This document shows, in pieces, positions 1 to 45,497 of a stretch of DNA of 64,000 nucleotides; position 1 is the first letter of the stretch; each line of letters begins with the position of its first letter. Made by a program: the position numbers and the translations under genes. This stretch comes from Eledone cirrhosa. Its lineage: Eukaryota. The notes beneath the pieces were generated by a model. The model had not been told where the DNA came from. It was given only the letters and a program-made list of their open reading frames with translations, and did not search any database. Location: positions 7,068,001 to 7,132,000 of the forward strand of contig OZ024765.1 of the NCBI GenBank assembly GCA_964016885.1. The letters run 5' to 3'.

Positions 1-409
1 CTTTTGCCTAAGTAAGACATACTCACAGAATGTATCGATGTATATGTATGAATGTATATATATATATTAGTATATTTTATGTTTACAATAAAAATAGACA
101 AACAATTTAATGATAATATGAAATGAAATTATTATTATTTATTAATAATATTTTTATTGTTTTCACTGCATTAACTTGTGAGTGTGACTTTGTTTTTCTT
201 ACTATTTTCTACTGTAAATGGCGGCTTAATTGGATTATTACTAAGGTTTAATGGATTGTGGTGTTTCTTTATTGTTTTATATTTCAATCAGTGGACATCA
301 GGATAGCTTTCTATATACCTGGGATAAATGTAAAGAGTACTGACTTTCATCTGCAGTTCAATGGTGATGTCTTCTTATATTTTCATTTACTTCTGCAATA
401 CTGTATATT

Positions 410-900
410 GTAGTCTTTTCATTATTTTAAATATTTCTATCATGTCACTCGTTTGGTATATCTCCCCGAAAGATATAGTTATTCAGAGCTTTACATTGGA
501 ATAGTGTACTACTATTTAAATATTAGTCCTTTAAATATATATTTCTATCATGTGTCCCCCCCCCCCCCCCCACCTTCTTAGATTTATCTCCTCTAAATTT
601 GCAATCCCTAAAGTTTAACATCTTTCTTCAGAAGACAGATTTCTTAATAATTCTGGTGTTTTCTGTTTTGTTCTTTTCTGGATTCCTTCAATAGCTTCTC
701 CGTATTTTCTGAAGTCGTCTGACCATGCCCCAAAATAATATTCTAGGTCGTATCACACATATCATTCAACTAGTGTTTTAGACTTCTCGACATTTAGCTT
801 GGCAAAAGGAATGTTTTATTATTCCTATCATCTGAATTCCTTTTTTTTCTTCAACATGTTTAGCCATCTTTAAAATCATATTCATACATATTCACAATTC
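410..900 (-). pseudogene. Degenerate CR1/L2-type LINE RT C-terminal fragment
   Basis: Minus-strand remnants resemble HLEYC..AWSP..EGIQRR.TK and SDMIEIFKIMK, typical of the CR1/L2 ORF2 C-terminus. Confidence 0.65.
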
Positions 901-1834
901 CTCGTGGAGGGGTATAAGAGACATGTATAAATATAGCTGCATATTACTACAAAATAACTTGAACCATATCGCGAAACATTTTGTAAAGTATCTCTGTAAT
1001 TATTCTCATTTCGATTTTCTGGAGAATGTATTGACGTTTAAGATAGAGACAATTGCCCTTCTTCTAATAACCTCTTTGTCCATTCCATGTTTAGTCTCAC
1101 AAAATATTGTTAATGCAAGATTTTACTCTAATGTAATAAATGTTACTTTTAAAAGACCGAAGTTCTCAATTTTCTTCTTTCTCTTGTATATTGATATCTA
1201 AAGGATGACAACTGTATGAATTATGTGATAGGGAGGGGAAAAAAAAGCCACGACCTTCTTCTCTCGTTACAGAAGGCTAACTGACAACGTCTTTCGCAGG
1301 AGTGACTAGTACTACTGCCTTTTATATACCGTGACAACTGGAAAGACGTGACAAATAAGGATACACTCTGCTCTCCTTATCAACATTGTCCGAGTCTGAG
1401 GACCTTTCCTCCCTGGTTAAGGAGTGAGATAAAATATTAGGGATCAATCTCTAGCAATAATTTTTATCTAATTATTATCAAACAAAACAGATTTATATAT
1501 TGTCGCCGTTGTACGTTAACATCGCAAATATATTTATATACACACCAAGGATGGAGGGACGACGGAATTGAAAACAATTATTGCTGAGTACATCACGGCA
1601 AGATCTAATCTAATAGATACACACACTCTCCCGTATATATTTAATAATCAGCTATGACCATGAAGAAGGTCCCTGTAGATCATCTGGTTGTAGGATCTAA
1701 TGAACCCGAATGAAAGTGAAAATATATTTTATGAAAGCCCCAGAAGAATAAATGTAAACATTGACTCGATTATAGTAGAAATAAGAATGAGAAAGCCATG
1801 AACGCCATCACATCTATTTTGCTTGGAAATTGAA

Positions 1835-2562
1835 AGTAGGTTTATAAATATAAATTTTTTCTTATGTTCTTGTATCTGTTTCGTTGGCCTAATAGTAGGT
1901 GTTAGAGACTGATGTGGTGTTCAATCTCAGTCCGAATCTGTACTATATATTTAAAAATTTAAATTTTTCTCTAGTAAAGTAAAAAATGAAATTATTATCT
2001 ATAGACTTTGACTGAAATCGAAATCCAGAGCAGGTTCTCCACCGTCTCTAATACCTACCATTAGGCCACGGAGACCGATATAAAAACAGTGTGAAAATTA
2101 ATATTTATAAAGTTACTTTTTTATTTTTGTTTTATACTATAAAAGATATAATACGACACACTGCCAGTGATTGAACCCCGGACCTGGACCTCCACCGGCT
2201 ATTATACTTACCACTAAGCTAAAGGGACGGTTACAGAAACTTACTGAAAATTAATATTTATAAACCTACTTTTTCATTACTAGAAAAAACCGGAAGTGGA
2301 GAAAATTGAAAAACATCTTCTTTTTCTTCCTCTGATTTTTTTTTATCCAAAATTTGGATTTAAGTCAGAGACGAGTTATCGTTCGTGGCAAAAATCAGAG
2401 GAAGAAAAAGAAGAAGTTTTTCAATTTTCTCCACTTCCGGTTTTTTCTAGTATAGGTAAGTAAATATTAATTTTCAAAAAATTTTTGTAACCGTCCCTGT
2501 GGCCTAATGGTAAGCACTAGAGACGGTGGAGATCCTGATTTAGGGTTCGATTTCCGTTAGGT
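1835..2562. ncRNA. Array of four tRNA-like Pol III cassettes around a hairpin (copy A)
   Basis: Units at ~1835-1933(+), 2008-2120(-), 2160-2272(-), 2453-2562(+). Each has an A-box like TGGCCTAATGG, a B-box like GGTTCGAT and upstream AAGTAGGTTTATAAATATTAATTTTC-like sequence. No canonical cloverleaf. Confidence 0.55.
2280..2450. repeat. Inverted repeat/hairpin with ~60-bp arms
   Basis: CTAGAAAAAACCGGAAGTGGAGAAAATTGAAAAAC...GTTTTTCAATTTTCTCCACTTCCGGTTTTTTCTAG. Confidence 0.9.
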
Positions 2563-4909
2563 TTTATACTAATAACTGCGTATTTGTTTCTTTTATTAAG
2601 TAAGATTTGAACTAATAATGCTGTACTTTGTAGTAATGTCCCATATTATATTCAACATATTTTAATTAACATTTTTTTTTTTTATAAAAGAAAGAACAAA
2701 AAACCTTATTGAAATTAAGAAATAAATTTTATTCAGTAAAGTTGTTTTTATTTTGTTTTCACTTCATTAACTGCTGAATACGTCTTTTGTTTTTGTTTTT
2801 GATTCTTTCTAACCATTGTTTACTGTGAATGGTGACTGCAACGAACCTGGATTATTACCAAGTTTCACTGGATGATTGTATTATTTTGTTGTCAGTGGAC
2901 ATCTGGACATCTATCTAAATACCTGGAATAAACACAAGGTGTGTGTTTTACGTAACATTTCATTTTAATGTCTGATGTTCCTGTATTTCACATTTAAAAT
3001 GTAACCAAAAATAAACAAGACAGGGACGCTACATCAAAATAAACCACACAGACGAGGTACGAATAATCTAAAATTAATTTTAACAAACTATAAACGATGT
3101 TTAAAGAGAGACGAACATTAAAATAGGATTTCAAACAAACACGTAAACACAAAGACAATTACAGCCGCTATAATCTAATATCTGAAGATCAACATTTTTC
3201 ACGATAGAAATAAAACTAAATATGTAAAGTTTAGTGGCCCCTGATTTACTTGCTTTTAATTTCATTTTGATAATCTGTATTCTGTAGACATATATTTATG
3301 ATTTTAATGATGAAATTTCCTCTTGTCTTTAAAAGATTATTACTTATAAAAATTATAATAGTCACCTCCTCCTCTCGATTAATATATAGCATCATTCGAG
3401 GTAGCTTACCCACAGGGGTTCCTCAACTGGGCGGTTTCAACTGTTGGGTGGGCGATGAGCAGCTGAACAGAAAATTGAGGGCCATTGGAAACTTTGGTGG
3501 CCGATATAGAATTTTGAGATTTAAGAAGGTATGCTAGCCGAAAACCTATTCAAGGAATATATGCAAAGAACCTGAATAAAAATCAGGAAGCTAATTGGGA
3601 AAATTAAACCAGGAACAAACATTTACGAAACATATTTGGTATACTTTGGAATATTTACTATACAGGTGGCTGGTGGAACATTTTTTCATGTGAATGTGGG
3701 AAATGACGCCAAAATATTTGGCAACCCTTGGCTTACACCTTACTAAATGTTCTGGAGACAAGCCTCTTCGCTATATATCATAGTTCTTCAATCCTTCATC
3801 TTCCACAGTTGGTGAAGTATTTCGATTTGATATGACGATCGCAGAGTTAGATTTAGGACGTGGTGGCGTTCATGGGTTTCTTAGTGTTGTTACTAGAAAG
3901 GGTCGACTGTCTTTCACACTTCAGGTTTTTTCATGAATTAAATATCCATTTTCTTTCCTATCGGTCTAACAATGATTTGAACCTACAATGACTCCGTCTG
4001 TAATAATGTTCTCTTATTTGAAATATGCCATACCTAACTCCCGTGTCTGTGTGTGTGAAAAATATTCCAACTTAGAGCGACATGCCCGTAAATTGTTTAG
4101 CCTGATTCCTATATATAGATAATGTGTAATATTTCAACCTTCATGGAGGGTCTTTGCCGTAATTTCCCGTAACTCCGACTAGAAGTCATTATGTAGTTTT
4201 TTCGTCCGTTAAAAATAATGATTAAAACAATTCTATATCCACAGTTATATACACCTCTTCATCACATATATTATTTCCACCAATAACTACATTATATCCT
4301 TAAATATGACACCAAGACATATAATTTGTAAATAAAAGATAAAATATTAAAACCTCAATTTTTAAATAATTTTACTCCACCTTTGTGTTCTCAGTGTTTA
4401 GATTAACCCATAATTTTTATGATTTGGGAGCATATAACTTATAGTACCAGTCATGTACTGGGATCAATTTAACGGATTGGTTCCTCCCCGCAAATTACTT
4501 GACTTTTGCCTAAGTAAGACATACTCACAGAATGTATCGATGTATATGTATGAATGTATATATATATATTAGTATATTTTATGTTTACAATAAAAATAGA
4601 CAAACAATTTAATGATAATATGAAATGAAATTATTATTATTTATTAATAATATTTTTATTGTTTTCACTGCATTAACTTCTGAGTGTGACTTTGGTTTTC
4701 TTACTATTTTCTACTGTAAATGGCGGCTTAATTGGATTATTACTAAGGTTTACTGGATTGTGGTGTTTCTTTATTGTTTTATATTTCAATCAGTGGACAT
4801 CAGGATAGCTTTCTATATACCTGGGATAAATGTAAAGAGTACTGACTTTCATCTGCAGTTCAATGGTGATGTCTTCTTATATTTTCATTTACTTCTGCAA
4901 TACTGTATA

Positions 4910-6090
4910 TTGTAGTCTTTTCATTATTTTAAATATTTCTATCATGTCACTCGTTTGATATATCTCCCCGAAAGATATAGTTATTCAGAGCTTTACATTG
5001 GAATAGTGTACTACTATTTAAATATTAGTCCTTTAAATATATATTTCTATCATGTGTCCCCACCCTCTTAGATTTATCTCCTCTAAATTTCCAATCCCTA
5101 AAGTTTAACATCTTTCTTGAGAAGACAGATTTGTTAATAATTCTGGTGTTTTCTGTTTTGTTCTCTGGATTCCTTCAATAGCTTCTCCGTATTTTCTGAA
5201 GTCCTGTGACCATGCCCCAAAACAATATTCTAGGTGGTATCATACATATCATTCAACTATCATTTAGTATATTGTATTATACCGTTGAAAATGTTAATTG
5301 TCCTTCTGAAATAAATCAGTTTGTCTCCAAATGATTCGTATTGTTGTTTCCTCCATTCGACGTATCCCGTCACAAACTCTGACGTTTCTACAACATTTCC
5401 AAACATTAATACAACATTAGCTCTAATGAAATAGATGGGACTTTTTAAACACTGACATTTTCATTTGGCTTCTTTCTAATAGATATAAAAGTGTATGTGA
5501 TAGGAGAGAAAAACTACGATCTTCTTTCGACGTTGTAGGAGGTTTATATATATATTAATTTTCATTTTCTTGCCCAATTCTGTATTTTGAAGTCCTTTCA
5601 TTATTTTAAATATTTCTATCATGGCACTCGTTTGATTAATCTCCTCCAAAGTTGTAATTCTAAGTGTTTGTCCCTGGTATAGTGAACTAATGTTGATATT
5701 TTCAAGTCTTGACATTTCTATGGAATAGTGTACTAATATTTAAATAGTCTTCATATTTTTATCCTGTCTCCCCTAAGATTTATCTCCTAAATTTACAAAA
5801 GCTTCTCATTTCTTTCACAAGATAGATCTTTAAATAATTATAGTGTTTTCTGTTTTCTTCTCTGGGTTGCTTCAAGAGCCTCACCATTTTTTCGGATGTC
5901 GGTTGACCATGGCCCAAAACAATATTCTCAGTGGTATCACATATTCATGTAGAGTTTTAGATTTTTCAGCATTTAGCTAGGAAAAAGAATGTTTTATTAT
6001 TTCTATTATCCGTCTCGCTGTTTTGCTTCAACATGGTTAGCCATCTTTCAATTCATATTCATAGATATTCACAATTCTTCCGTGAGGGTA
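4910..6090 (-). pseudogene. Two tandem degenerate CR1/L2 LINE fragments
   Basis: Same motifs twice (~4910-5260 and ~5590-6090); ORF 5476..5715 contains SAMIEIFKIMKGL. Confidence 0.65.
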
Positions 6091-6188
6091 TAAGAAGCTC
6101 GTTATTTGCTCAACATTCGATACCAAAACATGCTTCGTATTCATAACTTCGTTGTACGAATATAATAATTAAAGTATATATACAAGCC

Positions 6189-6228
<40 letters not shown>

Positions 6229-7058
6229 GCTTATTAACTCTTTCCCGAAACATTTATTTCTTCAAAATAAGGTAAGATATATCCCGAAAAATATTATATG
6301 GTGTCTCAATAATTATTCCATTTCAATCAATTTCTCATTTCAGTTTTCTTTAGAAATGTCTTGGCGTTGAAGATACATACATTTGTCCTTCTCATAGTAA
6401 TTAGCTTGTCTCAAAATTGTTCGTATTGTTTCCATGTTTAGTGTCACAAACTATCGTTAATTCAAGATTTTCCTCTAATGTAATAAATGTTACTTTTAAA
6501 AGACCGAAGCTCTCAATTTTTTTCTTTCTCTTGTATATTGATATCTAAAGAATAACAAATGTATGTAATAGGAGAAAAAAACGACGGCCTTCTTCCCTCG
6601 CTATAGAAGGCTAACTGACAAGTACCCGGCAACGGTGAGCATCACGTGTTTAGTGATGGTCACCTATTACTTCCTTTTATATACCATGTTAACTGGAAAG
6701 ACTTGCCAAGTATGGATACCCTCTCTCCTTATCAATATTGCCCGAGTCCGAGGACATTTTCTCCTTGGTTAAGGAGTGAGATAAAATATTAGGGATCAAT
6801 CTCTAGCAATAATTTAATTAAATTATATTTAACCAAAACTGTTATGTCGTGTTTGTTGTTTTATTTTATAGTCGTGGTTTCAAGGTTTATCAGGGGTTGT
6901 AGAATTAGTTTCATCTAATTATTATCAAACAGAAATTATGTACATATTGTCGTTGTACGTTGAAATCACATATATACATTTATATACACACCTAGGATGG
7001 AGGGAAGACAGAATTGAAAACCATTATTGCTGAGCACAATATTGCAGGATCAAATCTA

Positions 7059-7089
<31 letters not shown>

Positions 7090-7264
7090 ATAATAATAAT
7101 CAGGTATGACCATTGATGAATGTCCCTGCAGATCATCAGGTTGTAGGATGAAATCAACCCTAGAGAAATGATAAATTATATGAAGGTATATTTTATGAAA
7201 GTGAACCATTTTGAAATCATTGGGAATGCGATAAACGCCACTACATCAATTTTTCTATAAAATA

Positions 7265-8098
7265 GAAAGTAGGTTTATAAATATTAATTTTGATAGTATT
7301 TTCGTATCTGTCTCTGTCGTCGTAGTGGTAGGTGTGGAGACAGTAGAGGGGCTGGTCTGGGGTTCAGTCTCAATCAAGAATCTCTCGAAAAATTTAATTT
7401 TTTTTATTTTTCATAAAATGAAGAAAAAAATAGCGGTGGAAGGAATCTGACTGAGATCGAACCCTAGACAAGGATCTCCACCGCCTCTAATAACTACCAC
7501 TAGTCCACGGAGACGGTTATAAAAGCTCATTGAAAATTAATATTTATAAACCTACTTTTTCAATTTTTTATAAAAACAAAATTTCTGTACAAGGTTTTTA
7601 GTGACAGAGATTGAACCCCTAACCAGTATCACCACTGTCTCTAGTATTTACCAGTACGCCACTGGGACGGTTACGAAATCGTAGTGAAAATTAATATTTA
7701 TAAACTTACTTTTTAATGGTTTTTATTTTAGAAGAAGTAAACTAAACATTAATAATACCCGTAGAACCTGACAGAGATCGAATCCAAGACCAAGATTTCA
7801 CCGTTTCTAATACATACCATTAGGCCAGAGGGACTGTACGAATTCGTAGCATATTTATTGTTGCTCTTTATGGAAAATACAGAAACCGGAAGTGAAAAAA
7901 TTGAAAATCTTTGGTCAAAATTCAGGCGAACTTTTTTTAAACAAAAGGATTTTTTTTGTAAATAAACTTGAAATTTTTGCCAAGAAACATAACTCTTGCC
8001 TGACTTAAACGCAAAAATTGATGCAAAAATTTTGCGTGTGCAACTTATAGGGACTGTACGAATTCGTTCTGAAAATTAATATTTATAAAACTACACTT
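7265..8098. ncRNA. Array of tRNA-like Pol III cassettes (copy B)
   Basis: Units at ~7265-7378(+), 7447-7558(-), 7601-7712(-), 7767-7858(-), plus a partial unit at ~8050-8098. Same A/B boxes and upstream element as copy A. Confidence 0.55.
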
Positions 8099-9530
8099 TG
8101 TTCGGTTGAAAACTCGGTGTAGTGGCGTTCATGGCTTTGTCGGGACGTCCTTGAATTCATCCCGACAGAGGAGAATTCATAAAGTAAATCTAGACTTTAT
8201 TTCTCATTGCTCTAGGCTTGATTTGAACCTACAACGACTCCGTCTGCAATAATGTCATACGGCATTCCAGCTTAGTACGTCCTACCCGTAAATTGTTAAA
8301 CGTGATTCCTATATATATACATGCAAGTAAGATTTGAACCTACAATGCTGTGCTTAATTTCTATTAATAAGTGTGTTTTATAAAAGAAAGTAAAGAAACA
8401 ATTTAATGAAAGTAAAAAAATTATTTTATTCAGTAATGTTTTTTCTTATATGTATTCACCTCATTAACTGCTGAATAGTTCTCTTGTTTGTTCTTAACAT
8501 TGTTTACTGTACATGGCGACTGTGACGAGACTGGATTATTACCAACTTTTACTGGATGATGGCATTTCCTTATTGTATTATTTTGTTGTCAGTGGACATC
8601 TCTCCAAATACCTGGAATAAACATATGGTGTGTCTTTTACGTAACATTTCATTTAATATCTGATGTTCCAATGGATCACTTTTAAAATAAAACCAATAAA
8701 CAGGACAAGTAGACTCCATAGAGATGAGATACGAATAATCTAAAATTAATTTTTTAAAAAAGATAATGTTTAAAGAAAGACAAACATTAAAAAAGGATTT
8801 CCAACAAACACGTAAAGACAAAGACGATCACATCCACAATTTAATATCTGAAGATCAACATTTTTCACGATATAAATAAAACTAAATATGTAAAGTTAAG
8901 TGACTTCTCATTTATTTGCTCTAACTTTATTTTACTAATCTGTATTCTGTAGACATATATTTTCGTTGGTGTACATTACGATTTCGTTGATGAAAGTTTT
9001 CACTCATCTTTAGATCTTTATTTCTTATAAAAGTTATAATACTCACCTCTTCCTGTTATATTTTCATATATACATATATATATTTACTTTTACCTGGAGT
9101 TTCGACCGACAGATAGTATTAGCAATTGGAAAGACCAATGGAAATATTGTTTCCTCGCTCCGATTTGACGAATGTCGATATATATATACATTCATATTTA
9201 CTCACTTCTATGTAAATATACATACATATATATTAAAAACACATACCATATACCATCATAAGAACGATTGACTAACCATCAGGACACATACTTGCTCATG
9301 TGAGAATTTTCACAGAGACACTTACGAAAACCGAACTTGCAACGCCACGTACACTTACATACACACATACGTACATACACATATAGAACGGGTATGACTT
9401 ATATAGGTACATCAAAGTTTAGGTTTCGCTAGTGTACCATTTGAGGTAGTTAGAAAGAAGTACCAGTGTAGTACTGGGGTCGATTCTTCTATATCTCTTT
9501 TTCAATTCCTTTCTAACAATATATTTAAGA

Positions 9531-11130
9531 AATGAAGGTAAAGAGATATGTTTACATTAATATAGATGTATGATACTTTCATATTTAATACGTAAGATGT
9601 GACAATATGTTGAATTGTCAGAACTTAAGACAAACTGGACAATGAATGACAGCTTCAAGACATCTAGCTGTTAAAACAAACGTTGATTAATGTTTCTAGC
9701 TTAAATATAATAATGTTGTTTCTGCATCTTTACACAGGTAATCAGTAATGAATTTATCACAATAAAGACCAGTTATAAATTATAATCGACCATTTAACAG
9801 ACCCGTGTACGAAACAATGGCTGACATTGAACAACTTTGTGTTTAACACTATTTCAGGGGAAATAACTCTATTTTTGTTGACCGTATATACTTACTCTAT
9901 TTTTAATATATTTTCTTTTATCTGTGATGTTAAAATTTCATTCGGATTAAAAAATGATTACAAACTGTTCACAATTCCATCAGAATGAAAATATAAACGC
10001 ATACAGCAAATACAATTAACCATTGCTAGGAACCTCACCAAAATACACGATGAGAGTGAAAGAAAGAGAAATGAAAATTAAAAAAAGTGGAGTGATAAAA
10101 ACAAAATCTACCATCAATTCACTGCCAAATGCGACAATCTATCCCACATCACAAGTGTCAAAGGAAATGTTTAAAGTAAGCCAATATGCTGGCAGCATTA
10201 GCACAGGTGATGGCGTGGCTAAGGCGCTAGAACAACCCAGCACCTTCAAAGGCATCAACTGACACAACAGTAAGTCAAGGCTAAGGGGCAGGAACAATTC
10301 GTTACCCTCAATGGTATTACCTGACACCTTGGTAAGGCAAGGCTAAGGTGCAAGAACAACTCAGCGCCCTCATGGGTATCACCTGACACGTTGAGCGACC
10401 AGCAATGACAAGTATTTCGCCGTCAGCAGCCCAGCTCCTCAAAACGTATTAAATACCACAGGCTGGAAGAAATAATTGTCCAATAGTTCCCAGTAATTTA
10501 GGATTTTATTCCATTAGGCAACGGAAGCAGTGACCCTTACATTTACCACAGCACCCATGATGTGGGATGGAGCAAAAATATCAGACTGTAGCGCCCCAGA
10601 TAAGACACCTGCCTCTTACCCAGGGACATAGTGTAAGGCCATCTGGTCTCTTCTCATCATTTCTGGATAATGCAGCCAGCTCCAGAACAGAGGGGATATT
10701 TACCCGAGCTAGTGCCTATATAATAATCAGACAAAGCAACCTGCCTTCAGGTGGCAAGACAAAGCTTGGTGGCTCAGCACCATAAAAACTGACTTTAGAC
10801 CTTTTTTTTTAGCACATAATTGCTTGCCACTTTCATGTTAATTTCATAAGCAGGCTGTTCTGTTGATCAAACAACTGGGATACTTGATGAAACTGGTATA
10901 GGTCCATACTCCTGCTACATTGATATGGTTTGGGAGTGTGAAGGTGAAAGAAACCTCTTACAGCATCATCATACTTTTTGTCTACCTTTCCATGATTAAA
11001 TACATTGGACAGGTCTTTTCCAGCACTTCTTTCCTGCTACTGCATTCCTTTGTTAGGTTCAGTATTTCAGGTTCAACTTCCACCAGTTCTGCCCAGGTCT
11101 TCCTCTACTGTAGCTTCCTTTCACTGCGAA
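9531..11130 (-). mobile_element. CRE-clade-like non-LTR retrotransposon 3' fragment (RLE endonuclease) plus shared downstream flank, copy 1
   Basis: Minus strand ~10420-10960 reads ..[44 protein letters not shown].., the RPDG restriction-like endonuclease motif of CRE-type elements. The block recurs at ~17827-19350. Confidence 0.65.
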
Positions 11131-11961: not shown

Positions 11962-12933
11962 TCACGCTGTTGAGTCAACTGGAGTATTCCCTCTTGTATA
12001 AATACATTTGTGAACAGTAAATTCACTACTCCGAGAGAATGATTTACCACAGATATCACAGTGATATGGTATTTCCCCTGTATGTATATGTGTGTGAACA
12101 GTCAAGTCTTTACTTACAGAGAATGATTTACCACATATATCACAGTGATATGGTTTCTCTCCTGTATGTGTACGTGTGTGACGAGTCAATTCAGCACTTC
12201 GAGAGAATGATTTATCACAAATATCACAATGATATGGTTTCTCTCCTGTATGTGTACGTATATGAACAGTCAATTCACCACTTTGAGAGAATGATTTACA
12301 ACAGATGTCACAGTGATATGGTTTCTCTCCTGTATGTGTACGTGAATGAATAATCAAGTTATTACTTGTAGAGAATGATTTACTGCAGATATCACAGTGA
12401 TATGGTCTCTCTCCTGTATGTGTACGTGTGTGAACAGTCAATTTATTACTTGTAGAGAATGATTTACCGCAGATATCACAGTGATATGGTTTCTCTCCTG
12501 TATGTATACGTTTATGAGTAGTTAAGTGACTATTTTCACAGAATGATTTACTACAGATATCACAGTGATATGGTTTCTCTCCTGTATGAATACGTTTATG
12601 AGTATTTAAATTCCTATTTTCAGAGAATGATTTACCACAGATATCACAGTGATATGGTTTCACTCCTGTATGAATGCGCAGATGAGCATTGAAGTTACTT
12701 CTTTTAGAAAATGATTTATCACAGATATCACAATGATATGGTGTCTCTCCTGTGTGTGTACGTGTATGAGAAGTCAGGTTAGCTCTTCCAGAGAATGATT
12801 TACCACAGATATCAAAGCGATATGGTTTCTCTTCTGTATTAACACACTTGTGAAGAGTTAAGTTATGTTTTTTAGAGAATGACTTTTTACAGATATTGCA
12901 GTAGTATGGTGATTTCTCTTGTCCATTTGCCAT
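11962..12933 (-). CDS. Tandem C2H2 zinc-finger protein (11 repeats, 8 with intact C2H2 ligands)
   Basis: 323-aa ORF of YHCDICxKSFS...HxRxHTGEKP repeats. Possible splice acceptors upstream (~12942, ~13313), so the true start is uncertain. Confidence 0.9.
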
Positions 12934-13638
12934 CTCCTCACCTAAAATGTATTCAGGTAAGTCTTAAATTCTTTTGTACCAACATTACCTCTTTTTTATA
13001 ATTTATTCTTAAGAAATATCCTTTCTGCTATATTTCCATCAACTTTGATCTTGATGTCAAAAGATGTTACAAACTCCTTTGTAATTTATCCAAGTTTAGT
13101 CACAATACAAAGTCAACTTCAACACATTCCAGACAGTAAAGTAGAGAAATGTTGGAATTAATCTCAGTTGAAATGAAATAGTTCACAGTAATTTACAGAT
13201 TTAATAAATCGACAAGGTCATATGTGTTCTGTATAGTCTTTAAAACATGAGAAATAAATATTGATGTTTTTGGTATAGAAAATACTTTAATGTTGATGTC
13301 ATCTAATATTCTGAAATAATAGAGAAACAGTATAAGATATTCAGGATATTTAAAGCTGGTTTAAAGTGTTTATGTTTATCTAACATATAAAATAGTGGTT
13401 ATCAACCTTATTTTACCTATGGACCTCTTTGATTCTTATTTTACTATGGTGGACCCCCATAGTAATTTGATGTTTAAAAAATCCTGTTTAAAGTGTTTAT
13501 ATTTATCTAACATATAGAAGATATATAAAATATAGTGATTCAAACTTGAGATTTTTACTATATTTCTACATTAATAAATTGTAGATATAAATGAACAATT
13601 GAACTAATCCAATTCAATCTTCCAAGACATATATGCAG

Positions 13639-15875
13639 TAGCACTGCCAATGACTGTACGTTCGTACAAAACTGTACGTTTTGCTCAAAATTTTGATGTG
13701 CTGTACATTCGGACGAATTTGCTGAACTTTTTAGTGATCTTGCCATCGGTTTATAAAATTCATGTTTTGACGCATTGATTGAGTGCATTTTCACATAAAT
13801 AAAAGCACGTGAGAATGCAGACGAGGCTTGTGCATGCAAGCGCGCGTTGACTTATGAGGTCAAGTGCGTCTGTAAATTTGGGGGAAGTATATGCCCAGTT
13901 TACCACGCCATATCTGTCATAACGCAGGAATTTTTCTCACAAACTGGTGTAAAAGGTGCGTGAATTTTTTTTCAAAAGTTTGATAGATTAGATTTAATTT
14001 TACAGCGCTAATAATTTATACAACCACGCCGTATCAGTCTGAACACAAAAGCAGAATTCTTATACATGTAAACGGTATGTGATGTTTTTAATAGTTTAAT
14101 TAATTCAAATAAATCTGATAGAACTAACTTGAACCAGATATGAGTGATAGAACTGTGAAACGAGAACATTCTTCAGATAACGAACATAAAGCAGCAGATA
14201 AGAAGGGTAGATGGGCATCGTATGAAAGGAAGCTTCCGTCCAAATTGTTGTACGATGAAAAGTTTTCTTCTTGGTTGGAAGTGGGCAAGAACGATACAAC
14301 TAAAGGCAAATGCATATTTTGCAAATGTGAAATTGCCGGCAGTTTGAGTCAAATTTTACGACATGAGTAGACAGAAAAGCACCGCAAGAATGCAAAAGAA
14401 GCGAATAAAGCAACGAGATTGAACAAATTTTAGCCAAGCCTCTTTGTTTTCTTCACATTCCAGGAAAGTAGTATCTGCTGAATTAAAGTACTGTGCATTT
14501 GTTGCTGAGCATAATCTACCCATCTCTATTTTGGACCAGTTGCCTGGCCTTGTTGTAAACGCCTGTCCTGATTCTAAAATTGCCCAGGATGTGAAGTGTG
14601 CCAGAACAAAAGGCACATCCATATTTTCAAAAGTCATCGGACCCTATGGCTTCAACACTTTATTAAAGAAGCTTCATTCGACAAAATTCTCCCTCATCAT
14701 CGATGAAACAACTGATGTTTCAATACTTAAACAACTCATCCTTGTATCCAGATATTACGACGTTGAAATTCAAAAGACTGTCAACGATTTTCTAACGCTT
14801 ATAGAAATAAATGATCACCCAAGCAACATTAGAGGATGGGTGTCCATCTACGGCTCGAAGAATTCTCACTTAAATGAAGAATCCTCTTACAAAGATGTAT
14901 TTTGCATTTCTATCTTTTATTTTAAACGACGTCAACAAACTTAATCTGGAATTCCAGGCCGAAAGCTATCGGATGCATCAACTCAAAAGAGCAATCAACG
15001 CTGGAATGAAGGGCATTTTGAGCAATTTCATTAAACCTGATTTACTTTCTGTCATCAATGTTTGTGAGATTAATGTCAACAATTCAATGGCACACCAACC
15101 ATTAGATCGTATCTACTTTGGTGCTGTAGCTGAGAGCATTTTACACGACAATTCTACCACCATTGCCCTTGATGAATTGCTGACCTTCCAACAGAATATA
15201 CTACGATTCTTTGTTTGTCTTTCAAACCAAATGCTAATGCGGAACAATTTGGAACTACTTGAGGCGTTAGACCCAACCAATGTCATGGAGGGAAGGCCGA
15301 GGTCAATAATTCCACTTGTTATGCGATTTCCAAGTCTTTGTGATGAGAAAGATTACGAAGAGATAAATCAGGAATGGCGGCACCTGACGATTCAAGGTTC
15401 TTCCTTCATCCCGCACAACGATCCAGAAAAATTGTAGTTTGCTGTCTCACAAGAGAAGTGTGGCGATGAAAACCGTTACCCTCTGCTGTCATCTCTTATG
15501 CTTAGTCTTCTTTCTTTACCCCACTCCTCCACAGCGGCTGAAAGAATTTTCTCTGTTCTCCACTCTATTAAATCAAAGAATCGAAATTGTTTGAAAACTT
15601 CCACTCTTAACGCTCTTGTTAGGTCAAAATATTTGTTACGACATGCCGACTGCACGAAGTGGGAGCCCGATGAACATCTTTGCAAAGCATTATTTGAAAA
15701 AAATTGGTACAACAGAGAATCTGCTCAGGAAGATGACGTTTCTTTTTGATGCACTTATGTTTAAATTGTCAATAAATGTTAACTTAAAAGATATGTATAA
15801 AAAGAGTGTTTTTGATTGTAATTGGGGGATTTAGTAAAATTCTGTACATTTTGAAAAAAACTTTTGGCAGCGCTG
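13639..15875 (+). mobile_element. hAT DNA transposon with disrupted transposase
   Basis: 8-bp TSD ATATGCAG at 13631-13638 and 15876-15883; TIRs TAGCACTGCCAA / TTGGCAGCGCTG. Confidence 0.92.
14140..15749 (+). pseudogene. hAT transposase pseudogene
   Basis: BED-finger-like CIFC..H..H, catalytic FSLIIDETTD and C-terminal LPHSSTAAERIFS dimerisation motif, split over four ORFs by stops, frameshifts and an internal deletion. Confidence 0.9.
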
Positions 15876-17081: not shown

Positions 17082-17826
17082 GTGTGTGTGTGTGTGTGTG
17101 TGTGTGAACCAGCGTCGTTCAAATCGGAGACGCTGGTCGCGGAACACGATCATCGCTAACACTGGACGCGCAGAGAGTCCCTTCTGGTTGATTCCCAGCC
17201 TGCTAGAAATAGCAGTCAGCTTGGTTAACATACACGGGATGTTTATCTTATTTGATGTTATAAAGTTATAAAATAAAAAATATATGTTGACACTCTCGAA
17301 TTGAATTGGTTGAGGCATTTGGGAATGCATAAGAAAAACCAGATAGACAGAAAGACAAAGAATTATGTATATATATATAGTAGAGATAAAGTCTTACGCC
17401 GGCTTATGTACATATATATATAAAGACAGTATATGTTGCTGATTAAATCTGTTTAATCGATAATTTCAGACCAGGTGGTAGAGTGGAGAATTAATATCGA
17501 TGTCTAATTAGCAACACTAAAACCTATCACATGGTAGAAATATAAGTAAATACAGCCTAAATAAGACGGGTTTAAAAATACAAACCTTTTCTTTCTGTCG
17601 ATGTTAAGTTGTAAGAAATAACAAAGACTGGAATGGAGTGATGAGTGGAAAACGAAGATTTGAAATATTAAAACAGCATCATTACTTTCGTAAAGTTTCT
17701 TCTTCTTCTTTATCTCACTGAACATATCAAAATATAAAGGTGAAGGTAAAGAGATATGTTTGCAATAAAATAAAAATATAATACTTTACATATTTAATAC
17801 GGAAGATGTAACAATATATTGAAGAT

Positions 17827-19350
17827 ATGAAGGTAAAGAGATTTGTTTACATTAATATAGATGTATGATACTTTCATATTTAATACGTAAGATGTGACAA
17901 TATGTTTGCAATAATATAGATATATGATCCTTTCATATTTAATACGTAAGATGTGACAATATGTTGAATTGTCAGAATTTAAGACAAACTGGAAAATGAA
18001 TGACTGCTTCAAGACATCTAGATGTTAAAACAAACGTTGATTAATTTTTCTAAACATAATAATGCTGTATCTGTATTTTTATGCATTTAATTAGTAATCA
18101 ATTCAATTTAATTAGATCACAGTAAACATCAATCATAAAATATAATTAACCAAGTAACAGAGATATGTACGAAAAAATGGCTGACATTTAAAAAAATTGT
18201 ATTTAACAATATTTCAGGGGAAATAACTCTTTATATATATTTTTATCTGTGAAGTTAAAATTTTATTCGGTTTAAAAGATTAGTTACAAACTGTTCACAA
18301 TTCCTTCAGAATTAAAATATAAATACATATAACAAATACAATTAACCATTGCTAGGAACCTCACAAATACAACGCACCAAAATACACGATCAGAGCGAAA
18401 GAAAGAGGAATGGAAATTTAAAAAAAGTGGAGTGATAAAAACAAAAACTACCATCAATCCATTCGCAAGTGCGACAATCTATCCCACAGCAGATCACAAG
18501 TGTCAAAGGAAATGCTTAAAGTAAGACAATACGCTGGCAGCATTAGCACGGGTGATGGCGTGGCTAAGGCGCTAGAACAACCCAGTACCTTCAAGGGTAT
18601 AAATTGACACCATAGTAATGCAAGGTTAAGGTGCAGGAACAATTCGTTACCCTCAATGGTATTACCTGACACCTTGGTAAGGCAAGGTTAAGGTGCAGGA
18701 ACAACTCGACGCCCTCACGAGTATCAACTGACACCTTGGTAACATGAGCGACCAGCTATGACAAGAATTTCGCCCTCAGCATCCCAAATCCACCAAACGT
18801 CTTGAAGGCCACAGCCTGGAAGAAATAATTGTCCAATAGTTCCCAGTTATCTAGGATTTCATTCCATTCGGCAACGGAAGTAGTGACCCTTTTATTTACC
18901 ACAGCATCCAAATATGCGGGAAGGAGCAAAAATGTCACTGACTGTGGCGTCCCAGATGAGACATCTGCCTCTTACCCAAGGACAAAGTGTAAGGCCATCT
19001 GGTCTCTTCTCATCACTTCTGGATAATGCTGCTAGCTCCAGAACTGAGGGGATATTTACCCGTGCTAGTGCCCATATAATAATCAGGCAAAGTGACCTGC
19101 ATTCAGGTGGCAGGACAAACCGTGAAGGCTTAGCACCACAAAAACTGGGAGAAACACTGGCCTTTGCCTCCCGGCTTCAGACAGACTTTAGACCTTTTTT
19201 TTAGCACATGACTGCTTGCCACTTCCATACTAATTTCATAAGCAGGCTGTTCTGTTGATCAAACAACTGGAATACTTGTTGAAACTGATGTAGGTCCATA
19301 CTACTACATTGATATGGTTTTGGAATGTAAAGATGAAAGAAACCTCTTAC
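17827..19350 (-). mobile_element. CRE-clade-like retroelement fragment plus flank, copy 2
   Basis: Direct repeat of ~9531-10970; [27 protein letters not shown] and FQAVAFKTFGGFG; truncated by the mariner relic. Confidence 0.65.
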
Positions 19351-19351
19351 A

Positions 19352-20177
19352 GCATCCTCAGCATATGAGTGGGTGGATTGTCATGATGGAAGACAACACG
19401 CTGATGCAGCTTCCCGGGCGTTTTTATGTGATTTTCTTGGCCATTTTTTTCAAAACATCTTCATAATATGCAGCTCTCATTGTTCCCTTGTTCTCGAGGA
19501 AGTCAAGCAGTAACATTCCCTCTACATCCTAGAAGACTGTGACAATGTCCTTCACTTTTGAACGCTCCAATTTTGCCTTGACTGGGCAGCCACTGCTTTC
19601 ATTGAGATTTGTCCTCAGGATTGTACTGTTAGAGCCACGTTTAACCCCGGTAACAATTCCCTGCAGAAAAGCTTCAATGTCTTCATCTCTACTTGTTCAA
19701 AATTTCCATCGAAAAATCTGCCCTTGTTTGCTGCTGATCTGGGCGCAACAGCTTTGGGACCCATTGAGCAAAAGGCTTGCTCAGCCCTAAATTCAGCATG
19801 GTTTTTTTTTACACACAGCCTGACATGGACGGCTTGCTATCTTCCACTTCTAAAACAACTTAACCATTTATTTCTTTGGGGCATTATCCCCATAAACTTA
19901 CTCCAGAACATCAAGGTTTTGGCTGCTCTTCCACCCTAGCTTCACCGTGTATTTGATGTTTGACCTGGCCTCAATTTTGATTAAAAAAAAGCCATGTTGC
20001 TCAAGTAGGTGCTGAATTCCGTCTGGTGGCACCGCGTTGCAGCATGCATTTAAGGGTTCATATTAGAACATATCATGACACATTAGTACAAGAACCTACA
20101 GGTGCATTGAGATCAAATTCCCTGCATATGATTATTGGTTCTGTACTTTTTCCACTAACATTTTGAAATCCCTTCGT
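19352..20177 (-). mobile_element. Degenerate mariner element
   Basis: Minus-strand VVFHHDNPPTH (mariner HHDNAPAH-like) and a TA-CGAAGGGATTTCAAAA terminus near 20177. Confidence 0.65.
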
Positions 20178-22950: not shown

Positions 22951-23181
22951 TTAGAGTGAGTTGTTGTGTATGGGGGCATTTTGTGAAAAAGTGTTTGAGC
23001 TGGTTGTGAGGAAAGATGGTGGCGGAACTAGGTGGGTGGAAAAGGATGAGAAGTACTCCGCAGCAAATTGCACCACATCGTCAGGTTTCCGTAGCAACAG
23101 GAACTGGAGAAAATCTGCAAGTAGGGACCGAATATCGGGTTTTTGTTGCAGGTAAATGGAGAAGTCATTCATGAATTTATC
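22951..23181 (-). CDS. CATIP: CATIP terminal coding exon (RIIa-like dimerisation/docking helix pair)
   Basis: TTTCCAG|DKFMNDFSIYLQQKPDIRSLLADFLQFLLLRKPDDVVQFAAEYFSSF...TAA. Confidence 0.92.
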   Translation of the reverse strand, partial: DKFMNDFSIYLQQKPDIRSLLADFLQFLLLRKPDDVVQFAAEYFSSFSTHLVPPPSFLTTSSNTFSQNAPIHNNSL

Positions 23182-26100
23182 CTGGAAACCAGAAAAAAGA
23201 AATAAGGGCGGTGAATTGGCAGTATTGGTAGAGGGTCGGACATGTTTTCCAGCATAGTTACGTCCCTTTACGATCTGAGTTCAAATCCCGCCGAAGTTAA
23301 CTTTGCTTTTCATCCTTATGGGGTTATGGGGGGTCTATCTCCAAAACCATAGGAGGAGTTCGTGAACAAACAGACAAGAACTACAACTTTATATATATAG
23401 ATATATAGGAAAAGAGTCAGGACCCCGACGGCTGAGCTCCGGCTGTTTCGACAGCTAGATCTGAACTCACTTTGGATCTAGCTGTCAAAACGGCTGGAGC
23501 TCAGTCATTGGGGTCCTGACTTTTTTCCTATTACCCACTCTACTACCCTAAGTATTGAGTACTCTGGTGCATTATGGTCCACCTGGTGTCTTACCGCACC
23601 CTCTTTGTTTTATATATATATATATATAACAAAGGAAGTGCGGTAAGGAACCAGGTGGACCATAATGCACCAGAGTACTCAATACTTAGGGTAGTAGAGT
23701 GGGTAATAGGAAAAGAGTCAGGACCCCGATGTTCAGATCTAGCTGTCGAAACAGCGGAGCTCAGCTGTCAGGGTCCTGACACTTTTCCTATATATATATA
23801 GACAATTATTAAATATATTAATAGATAAATAAATGACATTGTTAAATAATAAATAAATCAACTAATACCTTAACACTTCACACAAAGTAAAACATTTCGT
23901 TTTAATCATTTTCTAACCCAGAAAAAAGAGAGAGAGAAATAAAAAAAAGGGAAAAAAAAAAAATTTTTCTTCCTAATAATCATCTCTTTCTCCCTGTTTT
24001 CATATATATATATATATATATATGACCCCGACGGCAGAGCTCAAGCCGTTTCGACAGCTATTTCTGGACTGGCGTCCAGAAATAGCTGTCGGGGTCATAC
24101 ATTTTCATATTATCCACTCTACTACCCCAAGTATTGAGTACTCTGGTTCGTTATGGTCCATCTGGTTCTTTACCACATCTCCTTTGTTATATATATACAT
24201 ATATATATATATACAATATATTTAGAAACACACAGATACATGCGGACACACACATATATACATGAATGCATCCGCACCCAACTGTGAGTTAAGGGTGCCA
24301 ACTTCACCGATGTTGCTCAATGAATGACCGGGACAGACCAATTCAGTTGAACTAGACTGAACCAGTATCAGAGTTAAAAGTACATTATGAAGAGAGAAGA
24401 AACATTTAGATATAATTAGTAATAAAATGTATCATACCTAAACTGCCCCTAAATTCCTCGACTACGTAGTTTCGTGGCATAAACAAAAACAATATATCAT
24501 AAAGACATAGAGTCCCTGCGAGGTCTGCCGACTTATCAAGAGGATACCTCATTTTACTAGTCTCAAGAACGCGTCTACACGACGTGAGAAAGAATCCCAA
24601 AAGGCGGAGGGGGAGATAGTCACGCGATATAACGGTCGAGAAACGGTCGAGGCTTAGCTCTGTTTCTCGACCGTTATATCGCGTGACTATCTCCCCCTCC
24701 GCCTTTTGGGATTCTTTCTCACGTCGTGTAGACGCGTTCTTGAGACTAGTAAAATGAGGTATCCTCTTGATAAGTCGGCAGACCTCGCAGGGACTCTATG
24801 TCTTTATGATATATTGTTTTTGTTTATGCCACGAAACTACGTAGTCGAGGAATTTAGGGGCAGTTTAGGTATGATACATTTTATTACTAATTATATCTAA
24901 ATGTTTCTTCTCTCTTCATAATGTACTTATATATATATATATATATATATACATACATATATAACCAGGAGACAAAGTGAACTGACCAACCCAGTAAAAA
25001 AGGGGAACAATGGAACAAGTGGGTATAGGAAATCAATAAACAGGTGAAAAGGGAAGTAAATATGATGAATACATGAAAAAAAGGGGACACATTTGGTATC
25101 CCTTCAGTAACAAAAGAACTGACCTTTTTGTCAATAAACTTGCTCTTCATTTCCATGTCTGTGTCCACATCCAGGGGTTGTTTCTTAAATATTGGTTTCT
25201 TCTCACGTTCTTTGGAATAAGATATAATAATAATGGTTTCATTTCTAGGCCAGAAGGGCCAACGTATAGGGGACAATACAGAGACAGTGGTGGTGGGAGG
25301 GGGCAGTTTACAATAGAATCGAGGGAAAATACATACACAATAACAAAAACAACAATGAAAAAATATAAAAATATAAAATATATAAAAATATAACAAAATA
25401 AATTCCCAAATAGGGGGAGAGGGGGGGCAACCCATGGGTAACTCAGGTAACCCACCAATCATGAACCACCCAACGATTCGAGTGCATCCGCAAGAACACC
25501 CGTCGCCCCCCAAAAAAATTAACCGGCCTACAGACATGATCAAAGACCAATTTTTGCCACATTCACCCACCTTTTTTTTTGGGGGGGGGGGGGGGGGGGA
25601 TCCCCCCCCCCCCCCCCCCCCCCCCCCACCTTCCTTTTAAAATGATATTTAAAGAAAAAATGATGAGTTGTCGGGAGAGGGGGTGTTTGACCCCAGTCTT
25701 TATAATCTCGTCCACCATATCACTTCTTTCGCCATAGTCACCAGACAGAAAAACTGCCTCTCCTTCGGTGTTAAATGAAACTGGCAGGGTAATCCTCACG
25801 ATGGACTCGGATGACAACTGGATTCATCCTATGTGTGACAGTAACTGGCCAACATGATCCCACAGGTCGGAAACTCCAGGGCACTGAACAATTGCATGCA
25901 GAACGATTTCGACGTTCTGCTCACATCTTGCCTGCGTCCTTTTGGCAGGATCCCTGCCAGGGCATCCATACCTGTAGATTTTGTCTTGAACTGGTACAGC
26001 TTCTCGGTAACACTGCCAGGCCAGGCACCTCTGGAAATTATCCATAGGCCCTTGACCTAAAGTCCTCTGGAATAGACTGGCCAATTCATCCTCTTCGATG

Positions 26101-45454: not shown

Positions 45455-45497
45455 GGTTCTACAGAGAAATCTGGAACAGGAACAAAGAAAATGTTAA

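What the first reader, a model, noticed from the sequence alone, without database searches (positions are those of the whole stretch)
1797..8135. Arrays of non-tRNA, tRNA-like Pol III cassettes amplified together with their upstream TATA element
Seen: eight full units and one partial unit of ~110 bp in two clusters. Approximate consensus AAAGTAGGTTTATAAATATTAATTTTCA-N~15-CCGTCYCYGTGGCCTAATGGTAGGTATTAGAGACGGTGGAGATCCTGGTCTRGGGTTCGATCTCAGTCA, with T-runs shortly downstream. TATAAA sits ~34 nt before the tRNA-like start; A- and B-boxes are kept but no acceptor stem forms, and CCGTCTC can instead pair with GAGACGG. Established: retroposed SINEs do not carry their upstream flank, so these were amplified as DNA. 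Units lie in both orientations around a CCGGAAGT-containing hairpin, bounded by CCATGAACGCCA..C / G..TGGCGTTCATGG inverted motifs (1797, 3860, 7231, 8118). Inference: a novel small-RNA gene cassette, a TFIIIC insulator array beside a ZNF gene, or the subterminal structure of an unclassified DNA element.
Basis: partly seen in the sequence, partly recalled or inferred. Interest (0 to 1): 0.75.

Follow-up and report, generated by a model that had tools for sequence, protein, structure and literature searches.

The report
Tandem tRNA-derived small-RNA gene family
This genome, probably an octopus relative, carries a 4.5-kb repeat, likely in many tandem copies, holding several broken-down tRNA-like sequences that keep precisely spaced start and stop signals and would make roughly 90-base RNAs, a layout known from rodent and primate small-RNA families, though no RNA was available to show that they are made.

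Summary
The repeats are real: eight bodies, one truncated unit and no other copy in the window. The two clusters are a young and an old copy of a 4.5-kb repeat, which DNA runs suggest is a deep tandem array. The four 'boundary' motifs are not transposon ends. Three lie 78-79 bases upstream of a predicted start, all four have a second shared motif 81-106 bases further up, and the fourth has no unit behind it. Geometry fits RNA polymerase III: TATAAA at -30/-31 in 7 of 9, A box at +11/+12, B box near +56 (one consensus base missing in 8 of 8), first T4 at 88-93 nt in 6 of 8. Bodies keep the D-arm and a partial acceptor stem in tRNA register; anticodon and T arms are lost. Not tRNA, not vault RNA. 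Best reading: a lineage-specific, tRNA-gene-derived Pol III family organised like rodent 4.5SH. Transcription, function and the host's true snRNA promoter are untested. The scan had not noted it on other DNA.

The parts
1..4502 (.). One period of a 4.5-kb repeat holding cluster 1 (phase set by the window edge)
   Evidence: 1-772 matches 4503-5259 at 96%; near-identical contigs have word depth 777-1412 in X1-X3 (table 8)
4503..5259 (.). Start of the next period, broken off at 5259 in this assembly
   Evidence: deep contigs continue past 5259 into blocks homologous to the rest of the period (tables 5, 5c)
5260..9054 (.). Old, rearranged copy of the repeat holding cluster 2
   Evidence: blocks 72-76% identical with gaps, 77-85% without, to 379-4143
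1674..1694 (+). Distal shared motif (DSE-like by position), -200 from U1 start
1795..1811 (+). Proximal shared motif (PSE-like by position), -79 from U1 start
1832..1967 (+). Unit U1: TATA block, predicted start 1874, body with 11-nt deletion, T4
   Evidence: deletion absent from about half the depth
1983..2120 (-). Unit U2: TATA block, predicted start 2079, 93 nt to T4; convergent with U1
2141..2273 (-). Unit U3: TATA block, predicted start 2232, 88 nt to T4; head-to-tail with U2 (153 bp)
2278..2452 (.). 63-bp inverted repeat = duplicated upstream region of the divergent pair U3/U4, each arm with an ETS-like CCGGAAGT
   Evidence: 98% complementary; motif at -65 and -56; one arm only in cluster 2
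2453..2565 (+). Unit U4: AT block without TATAAA, predicted start 2489, 73 nt to T4
3860..3876 (-). PSE-like motif with no unit behind it in this copy
   Evidence: a contig joins it through 21 letters to a U2/U6-type TATA block (table 5c); nothing recognisable downstream
3982..4002 (-). DSE-like motif upstream of 3876
7127..7147 (+). DSE-like motif, -179 from U5 start
7228..7244 (+). PSE-like motif, -78 from U5 start
7265..7401 (+). Unit U5 (counterpart of U1), predicted start 7306, 92 nt to T4
7427..7559 (-). Unit U6 (counterpart of U2), predicted start 7518, 88 nt to T4
7578..7713 (-). Unit U7 (counterpart of U3), predicted start 7672, 91 nt to T4
7762..7895 (-). Unit U8 (counterpart of U4, inverted) with ETS-like motif at -56; no TATAAA, no T4 until 147 nt
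8049..8098 (-). Truncated unit U9: TATA block and first 8 bases of the body; shares 19 bases with the U8 start
8119..8135 (-). PSE-like motif, -78 from U9 start
8228..8248 (-). DSE-like motif, -191 from U9 start
11962..12963 (-). Neighbouring C2H2 zinc-finger reading frame (333 aa), pointing towards the array; context only

Best explanation
The units are likely descendants of one tRNA gene that lost its anticodon and T arms, kept the spacing of TATA box, start, A box, B-like box and T-run, and were multiplied as DNA inside a 4.5-kb repeat that is likely a high-copy tandem array, where RNA polymerase III would make RNAs of about 90 bases that cannot act as tRNAs. Shown in sequence: the signals, their spacing, the pre-tRNA layout (4-nt leader, 73-nt body, trailer, T4) and the duplication history. 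Inferred: TBP/TFIIIB loads on the TATA block, the A box and the TTCRA core help place it, and lead units (U1, U5, U9) gain from an upstream two-motif module placed like the DSE and PSE of snRNA-type promoters, while U3, U4 and U8 have an ETS-like site at the same place. Selection appears to have acted most on the transcription signals and weakly on the D-arm and acceptor pairing, so the RNA most likely works as an abundant, loosely folded tRNA-like molecule that binds tRNA-handling proteins (La, processing or modifying enzymes) rather than by a fixed fold of its own. That last step is untested.
For: Geometry: predicted start is the A of a TA in 9 of 9; TATAAA at -30/-31 in 7 of 9; T8 of the A box at +12 in 7 of 8 (+11 in U8); B box at +56 in 6 of 8 (+54 U8, +45 deleted U1). 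PMC7279448 (passages) gives TATA near -30, box A at +12 and box B at +54. Conservation across 21 pairs of U1-U7: TATA block 89%, body 72%, the spacer between them 60%, trailer 64%. Eleven box positions are 93% conserved against 82% for 57 other body columns, permutation p 0.011. No T4 before the B box in 8 of 8; first T4 22-27 nt behind it in 5 of 8, shuffle p 0.004. Proximal motif 29 nt from the TATA block in 3 of 3 cases that have one, with unlike spacers; distal motif upstream of 4 of 4; both absent from the other 54 kb and from 100 shuffles. D-arm plus acceptor in tRNA register: 66% of cells paired against 32-41% when slid, 5 pairs changed on both sides, 2 of 500 shuffles. Contigs 98-100% alike to the 4.5-kb period have depth 777-1412 in X1-X3, divergent ones 7-74.
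Against: No transcript was seen. The B box misses C61 in 8 of 8 and G53 in 2 of 8. Bodies of counterpart units are 77% identical, below the 80-85% of flanking blocks, so the body as a whole shows no purifying selection. RNAalifold finds no consensus fold and 6 of 7 cores fold no better than shuffles. The two-helix test was chosen after seeing the four-helix result, rests on 8 rows, and for the acceptor alone a slide of -1 scores as well on covariation. Counterpart units are not independent, which inflates all p values. The proximal motif lies 20-30 nt further upstream than the PSE position in PMC7279448 (-50 to -60) and was not compared with any host snRNA gene. U4, in the deep monomer, has no TATAAA. 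Depth is uncalibrated, all 4 runs are one study, and they hold only 35-45% of the sampled words.
Confidence: 0.6

Rival explanations
1. Dead relics: a once-active tRNA-derived family now silent and carried passively in a satellite; conservation reflects past selection and gene conversion.
For: Body identity below flank identity; deletion in U1, no TATAAA in U4 and U8, truncation of U9, orphan motif at 3876; no consensus fold; star-like tree with no supported fork.
Against: The TATA block is 94% identical between counterpart units whose adjacent spacer is 61%; start, box and T-run spacing survive in both the young and the old copy.
Confidence: 0.2
2. The DNA signals matter and the RNA does not: an array of TFIIIB/TFIIIC sites acting as a chromatin boundary or organiser, possibly for the neighbouring ZNF locus.
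For: Signals are conserved more than the body; tRNA genes and extra TFIIIC sites act as boundaries in yeast and mammals (recalled); a ZNF frame ends 3.8 kb away.
Against: The B box, the main TFIIIC site, is non-canonical in 8 of 8; initiator and terminator spacing are kept, which a binding-only site would not need; the ZNF lies beside one edge of what appears to be a long array, so the link may be positional.
Confidence: 0.1
3. These are the animal's vault RNA genes, diverged beyond recognition.
For: Size 73-101 nt, A and B boxes, upstream TATA/proximal/distal elements and clustering all occur in vault genes (PMC7058938 and PMC8824774, passages); fluke vault RNAs keep little of box B.
Against: No hit to Rfam's vault family at E up to 10 over 7 of the 8 bodies in short stretches and all 8 in the 7-kb scan, although that family holds a limpet sequence; the motif that follows box A in lophotrochozoan vault RNAs is absent; 5'-3' duplex no better than shuffles in 8 of 8; spacing between boxes is fixed at tRNA length.
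Confidence: 0.05
4. Ends of a mobile element: subterminal repeats of a DNA transposon, or LTRs of a Helenus-type TRIM with a tRNA-like promoter.
For: Inverted motifs flank both clusters and a near-perfect 63-bp inverted repeat is flanked by TA; animal Helenus carries a tRNA-like stretch in its LTR and can form tandem arrays.
Against: Motifs are at fixed promoter distance and paired with a second upstream motif; no duplication abuts them; the inverted repeat has a single-arm counterpart in cluster 2; sequences between head-to-tail units are unlike, not a shared internal part.
Confidence: 0.05

Closest known systems
Rodent 4.5SH and 4.5SI RNA genes (PMC7279448, passages; PMC10137851, start of abstract)
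   Same: Lineage-restricted Pol III RNAs near 100 nt with A and B boxes and a required TATA-like box at -31/-24; 4.5SH lies in hundreds of copies of a 4-5 kb tandem repeat; 4.5SI is of tRNA origin.
   Different: 4.5SH comes from 7SL via a SINE and the passages describe one gene per repeat; here four diverged genes per period face both ways, keep a pre-tRNA layout, a canonical TATA in a 29-bp block and two further upstream motifs. Expression is unknown here.
Primate snaR genes (PMC3045588, passages)
   Same: Pol III small-RNA family spread by segmental duplication into tandem arrays, with fast-diverging subsets.
   Different: Alu-derived, about 117 nt, highly structured, intragenic promoter; expression shown.
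Amphibian tRNA-like tandem repeats: Xenopus OAX, newt PolIII/TAN, Rana/polIII (PMC10702118, passages)
   Same: tRNA-like sequence in tandem DNA with no matching SINE; the newt repeat is transcribed in vitro.
   Different: Short units (about 250-360 bp for Rana and newt); no multi-gene period or upstream module in the passages seen.
Vault RNA genes (PMC7058938, PMC8824774, passages)
   Same: Hybrid promoter of internal boxes plus upstream elements; size range; clusters.
   Different: No panhandle, no post-A-box vault motif, no Rfam hit, fixed tRNA-length box spacing.
tRNA-Sec and other type-3 Pol III genes (PMC7279448, passages)
   Same: DSE-PSE-TATA order upstream of a tRNA-related body.
   Different: Body has ordinary 7-bp acceptor and 4-bp D-arm register with an intact A box and no cloverleaf; proximal motif lies further upstream.

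Membership tests
Functional tRNA gene | Cloverleaf with four stems | tested here: not met
   D-arm 81%, acceptor 57%, T 48%, anticodon 27% of cells paired; no ARAGORN or Rfam call
Functional tRNA gene | Invariant T8, A14, G18, G19, G53-C61, T54-A58 | tested here: not met
   T8, A14, G19, T54, T55, C56 in 8 of 8; G18 and A58 in 7; G53 in 6; C61 in 0
Type-2 Pol III unit | A box near +12 and B box near +54 from the start | tested here: met
   +11/+12 in 8 of 8, +54/+56 in 7 of 8; B box with one constant mismatch; the start is predicted, not mapped
Type-2 Pol III unit | T4 terminator behind the B box, none inside | tested here: met
   no internal T4 in 8 of 8; T4 within 35 nt in 7 of 8
Type-2 Pol III unit | Transcribed by Pol III | not testable with these tools
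   no RNA run was listed
Type-3 (snRNA-like) promoter | TATA near -30 | tested here: met
   7 of 9
Type-3 (snRNA-like) promoter | PSE at -50 to -60, matching the host's U6/7SK PSE | tested here: inconclusive
   fixed motif at -78/-79 to -62 in 3 of 9; host snRNA genes not available
Type-3 (snRNA-like) promoter | DSE with SPH or octamer near -210/-240 | tested here: inconclusive
   shared motif at -179 to -200; likeness to a Staf/ZNF143 site is recalled, not tested
Vault RNA | Panhandle joining 5' and 3' ends | tested here: not met
   duplex no better than shuffles in 8 of 8; only a partial 7-bp acceptor
Vault RNA | Conserved motif after box A; match to RF00006 | tested here: not met
Vault RNA | Association with the vault particle | not testable with these tools
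   needs pull-down
tRNA-derived SINE | Unrelated 5' flanks, target-site duplications, shared body and tail behind the head | tested here: not met
   shared upstream block 89% identical, trailers 64%; no dispersed copy in 64 kb
tRNA-derived SINE | Match to a catalogued octopus SINE head | not testable with these tools
   no repeat library held; Ohshima and Okada 1994 seen only as a reference title
Helenus TRIM | Two LTRs around a shared internal part with PBS and PPT, 4-bp TSD | tested here: inconclusive
   no shared internal part between head-to-tail units; PBS and PPT not searched; consensus supplement not read
DNA transposon / MITE | Terminal inverted repeats with abutting TSD, dispersed copies | tested here: not met
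   for the four motifs; for the 63-bp arms; dispersal outside the window not testable
4.5SH-like tandem Pol III family (organisation) | Gene within a multi-kb tandem repeat of high copy | tested here: met
   period 4502 bp; deep contigs run on head-to-tail; copy number uncalibrated
4.5SH-like tandem Pol III family (organisation) | Abundant discrete small RNA | not testable with these tools

The most novel reading that the evidence does not exclude
An octopod counterpart of 4.5SH, snaR and BC1: an abundant family of ~90-nt RNAs born directly from a tRNA gene, driven by a hybrid tRNA/snRNA promoter, amplified to hundreds of genes in several subfamilies and kept for a regulatory job in neurons or germ line; convergent pairs (U1/U2, U5/U6) could add long double-stranded RNA on read-through.
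Probability: 0.25. Interest if true: 0.75.

Novelty: new variant of a known kind. Interest (0 to 1): 0.5.

Why it matters
Lineage-specific Pol III RNAs of this size are known mostly from rodents, primates and amphibians. The cephalopod annotations read here relied on Rfam, tRNAscan and miRNA pipelines, and Rfam and ARAGORN call nothing here. The locus gives exact predicted starts, ends and promoter motifs, so one Northern blot or one re-mapping of existing total-RNA data can settle it. If the proximal motif is the host PSE, it also gives a usable cephalopod Pol III promoter. If silent, it is an ordinary satellite with decayed tRNA-like copies.

Tried and rejected
No whole genome is held, so copy number, dispersal and host U6/tRNA promoters were not examined. 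No RNA holder listed; this is no evidence on expression. Pattern scans found 0 matches in viral contigs and in metagenome contigs twice. Rfam at E up to 10 gave only hairpin-driven miRNA and leader hits far below gathering scores and nothing at E up to 1 in 2600-4520. The stretch behind the orphan motif (3380-3830, minus) folds like its shuffles, z 0.01, and has no long frame: no Pol II snRNA found there. The bacterial promoter scan is not relevant. My first reading of U9/U8 as one unit split by an insertion with a 19-bp duplication was dropped, because the intervening DNA is homologous to the upstream region of U4. CpG decay does not explain body divergence: 6 of 30 departures at CpG columns against 82 of 501 elsewhere. 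The tree of 8 bodies has no supported fork. The ZNF homologue search did not place the organism: listed hits were 34-63% identical across many animals; the octopod label rests on earlier AI notes and recalled repeat sequence. Paper searches listed no description of this family, of a cephalopod PSE or of a cephalopod vault RNA; several returned over 800 papers of which 10-20 were listed, and the library lacks most subscription papers. Scan look-ups by place, sequence and words found nothing alike.

Full report
Observation. The region holds eight tRNA-like bodies, U1-U4 at 1832-2565 and U5-U8 at 7265-7895, and a truncated ninth unit at 8049-8098. A profile built from the eight recovers them at E 1e-13 to 1e-22 and finds nothing else in 64 kb below E 4. 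The AT-rich block and the CCATGAACGCC motif are far above chance (7 and 4 matches against 0.00 and 0.09). ARAGORN and Rfam call nothing.

Larger frame. Window 1-772 recurs at 4503-5259 at 96%, and blocks of 379-4143 recur, rearranged, at 5558-9054 at 72-76%. U1/U5, U2/U6 and U3/U7 are counterparts in the same order; U4/U8 are counterparts in inverted orientation. Four runs of one study, none on record as RNA, hold 35-45% of the sampled words. Laid on 1400-8600 at 80% likeness, the 9 listed contigs of X1-X3 that are 98-100% alike to the first 4.5 kb have word depth 777-1412, whereas the 15 listed contigs over the old copy have 7-74 (table 8; only 32 of about 19,300 pieces are shown). Contigs of depth 1061-1393 leave the reference at 5259 and continue into blocks homologous to the rest of the period (tables 5, 5c). 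I infer a head-to-tail array of a 4.5-kb period whose edge, with an older diverged copy, lies in this window. Depth is not a copy number and was not calibrated; tens to a few hundred copies would fit. At many places in the old copy all laid depth shows another letter (table 3), so the runs hold related subfamilies rather than this exact copy.

The 'boundary' motifs. In U1, U5 and U9 the motif ends exactly 29 nt before the TATA block, while the spacer of U9 is unlike those of U1 and U5. A contig of depth 325-402 in X1 and X3 joins the fourth, orphan motif (3860-3876) to a U2/U6-type block through 21 other letters, which gives 30 nt (table 5c). All four motifs have a second shared motif 81-106 nt further upstream in the same relative orientation, and a weaker copy of it further still; neither occurs in the remaining 54 kb or in 100 shuffles. 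No target-site duplication abuts them. They are inverted because the units they precede face inwards. The 63-bp hairpin is an inverted duplication of the upstream region shared by the divergent pair U3/U4; cluster 2 has one arm. Its CCGGAAGT lies at -56 to -65, where lead units have the 3' half of the proximal motif.

Pol III geometry. Taking the A of a TA present in 9 of 9 units as start, TATAAA falls at -30/-31 in 7 of 9, the A box at +12 in 7 of 8 (+11 in U8), the B box at +56 in 6 of 8, the proximal motif at -78/-79, the distal motif at -179 to -200, and the first T4 at 88-93 nt in 6 of 8 (73 in U4, 147 in U8). PMC7279448 (passages) places TATA near -30, box A at +12 to +22, box B at +54 to +64, PSE at -50 to -60 and DSE at -210/-240. 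The start was chosen with this geometry in mind and is not mapped. Over 21 pairs of U1-U7 the TATA block is 89% identical, the spacer behind it 60%, the body 72%, the trailer 64%. Box positions are more conserved than the other body columns (0.93 against 0.82, p 0.011), but C61 is missing in all eight. The T4 lies 22-27 nt behind the B box in 5 of 8 (shuffle p 0.004; U1 35, U4 7, U8 none within 80). Counterpart units are related, so these p values are optimistic. Against the reading: counterpart bodies are 77% identical, less than the flanking blocks at 80-85%.

Structure. RNAalifold finds no consensus. In tRNA register, fixed by the boxes, the D-arm pairs 81%, the acceptor 57%, the T arm 48% and the anticodon arm 27%. 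D-arm plus acceptor alone pair 66% against 32-41% when slid, with five pairs changed on both sides (2 of 500 shuffles). This subset was picked, and the acceptor alone is weaker, so it is a hint. It implies descent from a whole tRNA gene, with 4-nt leader, 73-nt body, trailer and terminator, and perhaps a period of selection on pairing after amplification. A likeness of the 5' half to Arg or Asn tRNAs is recalled and untested.

Mechanism. Most likely (0.6) these are active or recently active Pol III genes: TFIIIB on the TATA block, the A box and TTCRA core assisting, upstream modules boosting lead units, termination at the first T4, giving RNAs near 90 nt that are not tRNAs and probably act, if at all, by binding tRNA-handling proteins. 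Signals, spacing and duplication are shown; binding, transcription and function are inferred. Rivals: silent relics (0.2), binding-site array or insulator (0.1), vault RNA (0.05), mobile-element ends (0.05).

Known kinds. It works like rodent 4.5SH in organisation: hundreds of genes, each in a 4-5 kb tandem repeat, with A/B boxes and a TATA-like box (PMC7279448, passages). snaR spreads by segmental duplication (PMC3045588, passages), and OAX, PolIII/TAN and Rana/polIII are tRNA-like tandem repeats without a matching SINE (PMC10702118, passages). It is not a member of any of these by descent as far as tested. Vault RNA shares the hybrid promoter (PMC7058938, passages) but the panhandle, the motif after box A and the Rfam match (PMC8824774, passages) all fail. 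Helenus TRIMs show that a tRNA-like sequence can retrotranspose with its flank (PMC10886601, passages); no LTR-internal-LTR pattern is evident, but PBS and PPT were not searched and its supplementary consensus file was not read. Mollusc SINE heads often come from tRNA-Arg (PMC4758252, passages); no repeat library was available to exclude a catalogued octopus element. The giant squid annotation used Rfam and tRNAscan and does not mention vault RNA (PMC6962438, passages); the octopus small-RNA survey has no hit for tRNA, polymerase III or vault in its main text (PMC9699675, passages).

Context. The C2H2 frame at 11962-12963 points towards the array and ends 3.8 kb from it; nothing ties the two beyond position. 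The octopod label comes from earlier AI notes on this genome and was not confirmed. Those notes also report retrozymes with snRNA-like promoter blocks and a tandem family of gutted rDNA units in the same genome; I could not compare their motifs.

Verdict. A real, apparently undescribed, tRNA-gene-derived Pol III-like family in a 4.5-kb tandem repeat: a new variant of a known kind. Interest 0.5; 0.75 if an abundant functional RNA is shown.

Noticed in passing
window 5537-5564: A lone TATA-block look-alike (2 mismatches) with no body behind it, in the old copy.
   Followed up: no
window 58-328, 2657-2932, 4560-4830, 8377-8621: A 250-290 bp block present twice per period at 66-71% identity, with short conserved motifs; no frame or Rfam hit; could be another cryptic element.
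   Followed up: partly
window 3374-3859: GC-richer stretch found only in the young period, directly behind the orphan proximal motif; covered by deep contigs; no fold, frame or Rfam match.
   Followed up: partly
window 1872-2082 and 7303-7521: Convergent unit pairs would fold into long imperfect hairpins (-73 and -88 kcal/mol) if read through; no control was run.
   Followed up: partly
window 2242 and 7529 (table 7): Loose ends show further body variants with other 5' ends behind the same TATA block, so more subfamilies exist in the genome.
   Followed up: no
window 14423-15749: Broken hAT-type transposase in three frames (Pfam dimerisation domain in the last piece), upstream of the ZNF exon.
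   Followed up: partly
window 9514-10900 and 17741-19360: A second local duplication, including a 62-bp tandem repeat (10217-10389, 18575-18742), flanks the ZNF exon on both sides.
   Followed up: no
window 22951-23280 (-) and 44858-45493 (-): Exons of other protein genes; the first has an RIIa-type dimerisation domain, the second no Pfam hit.
   Followed up: no
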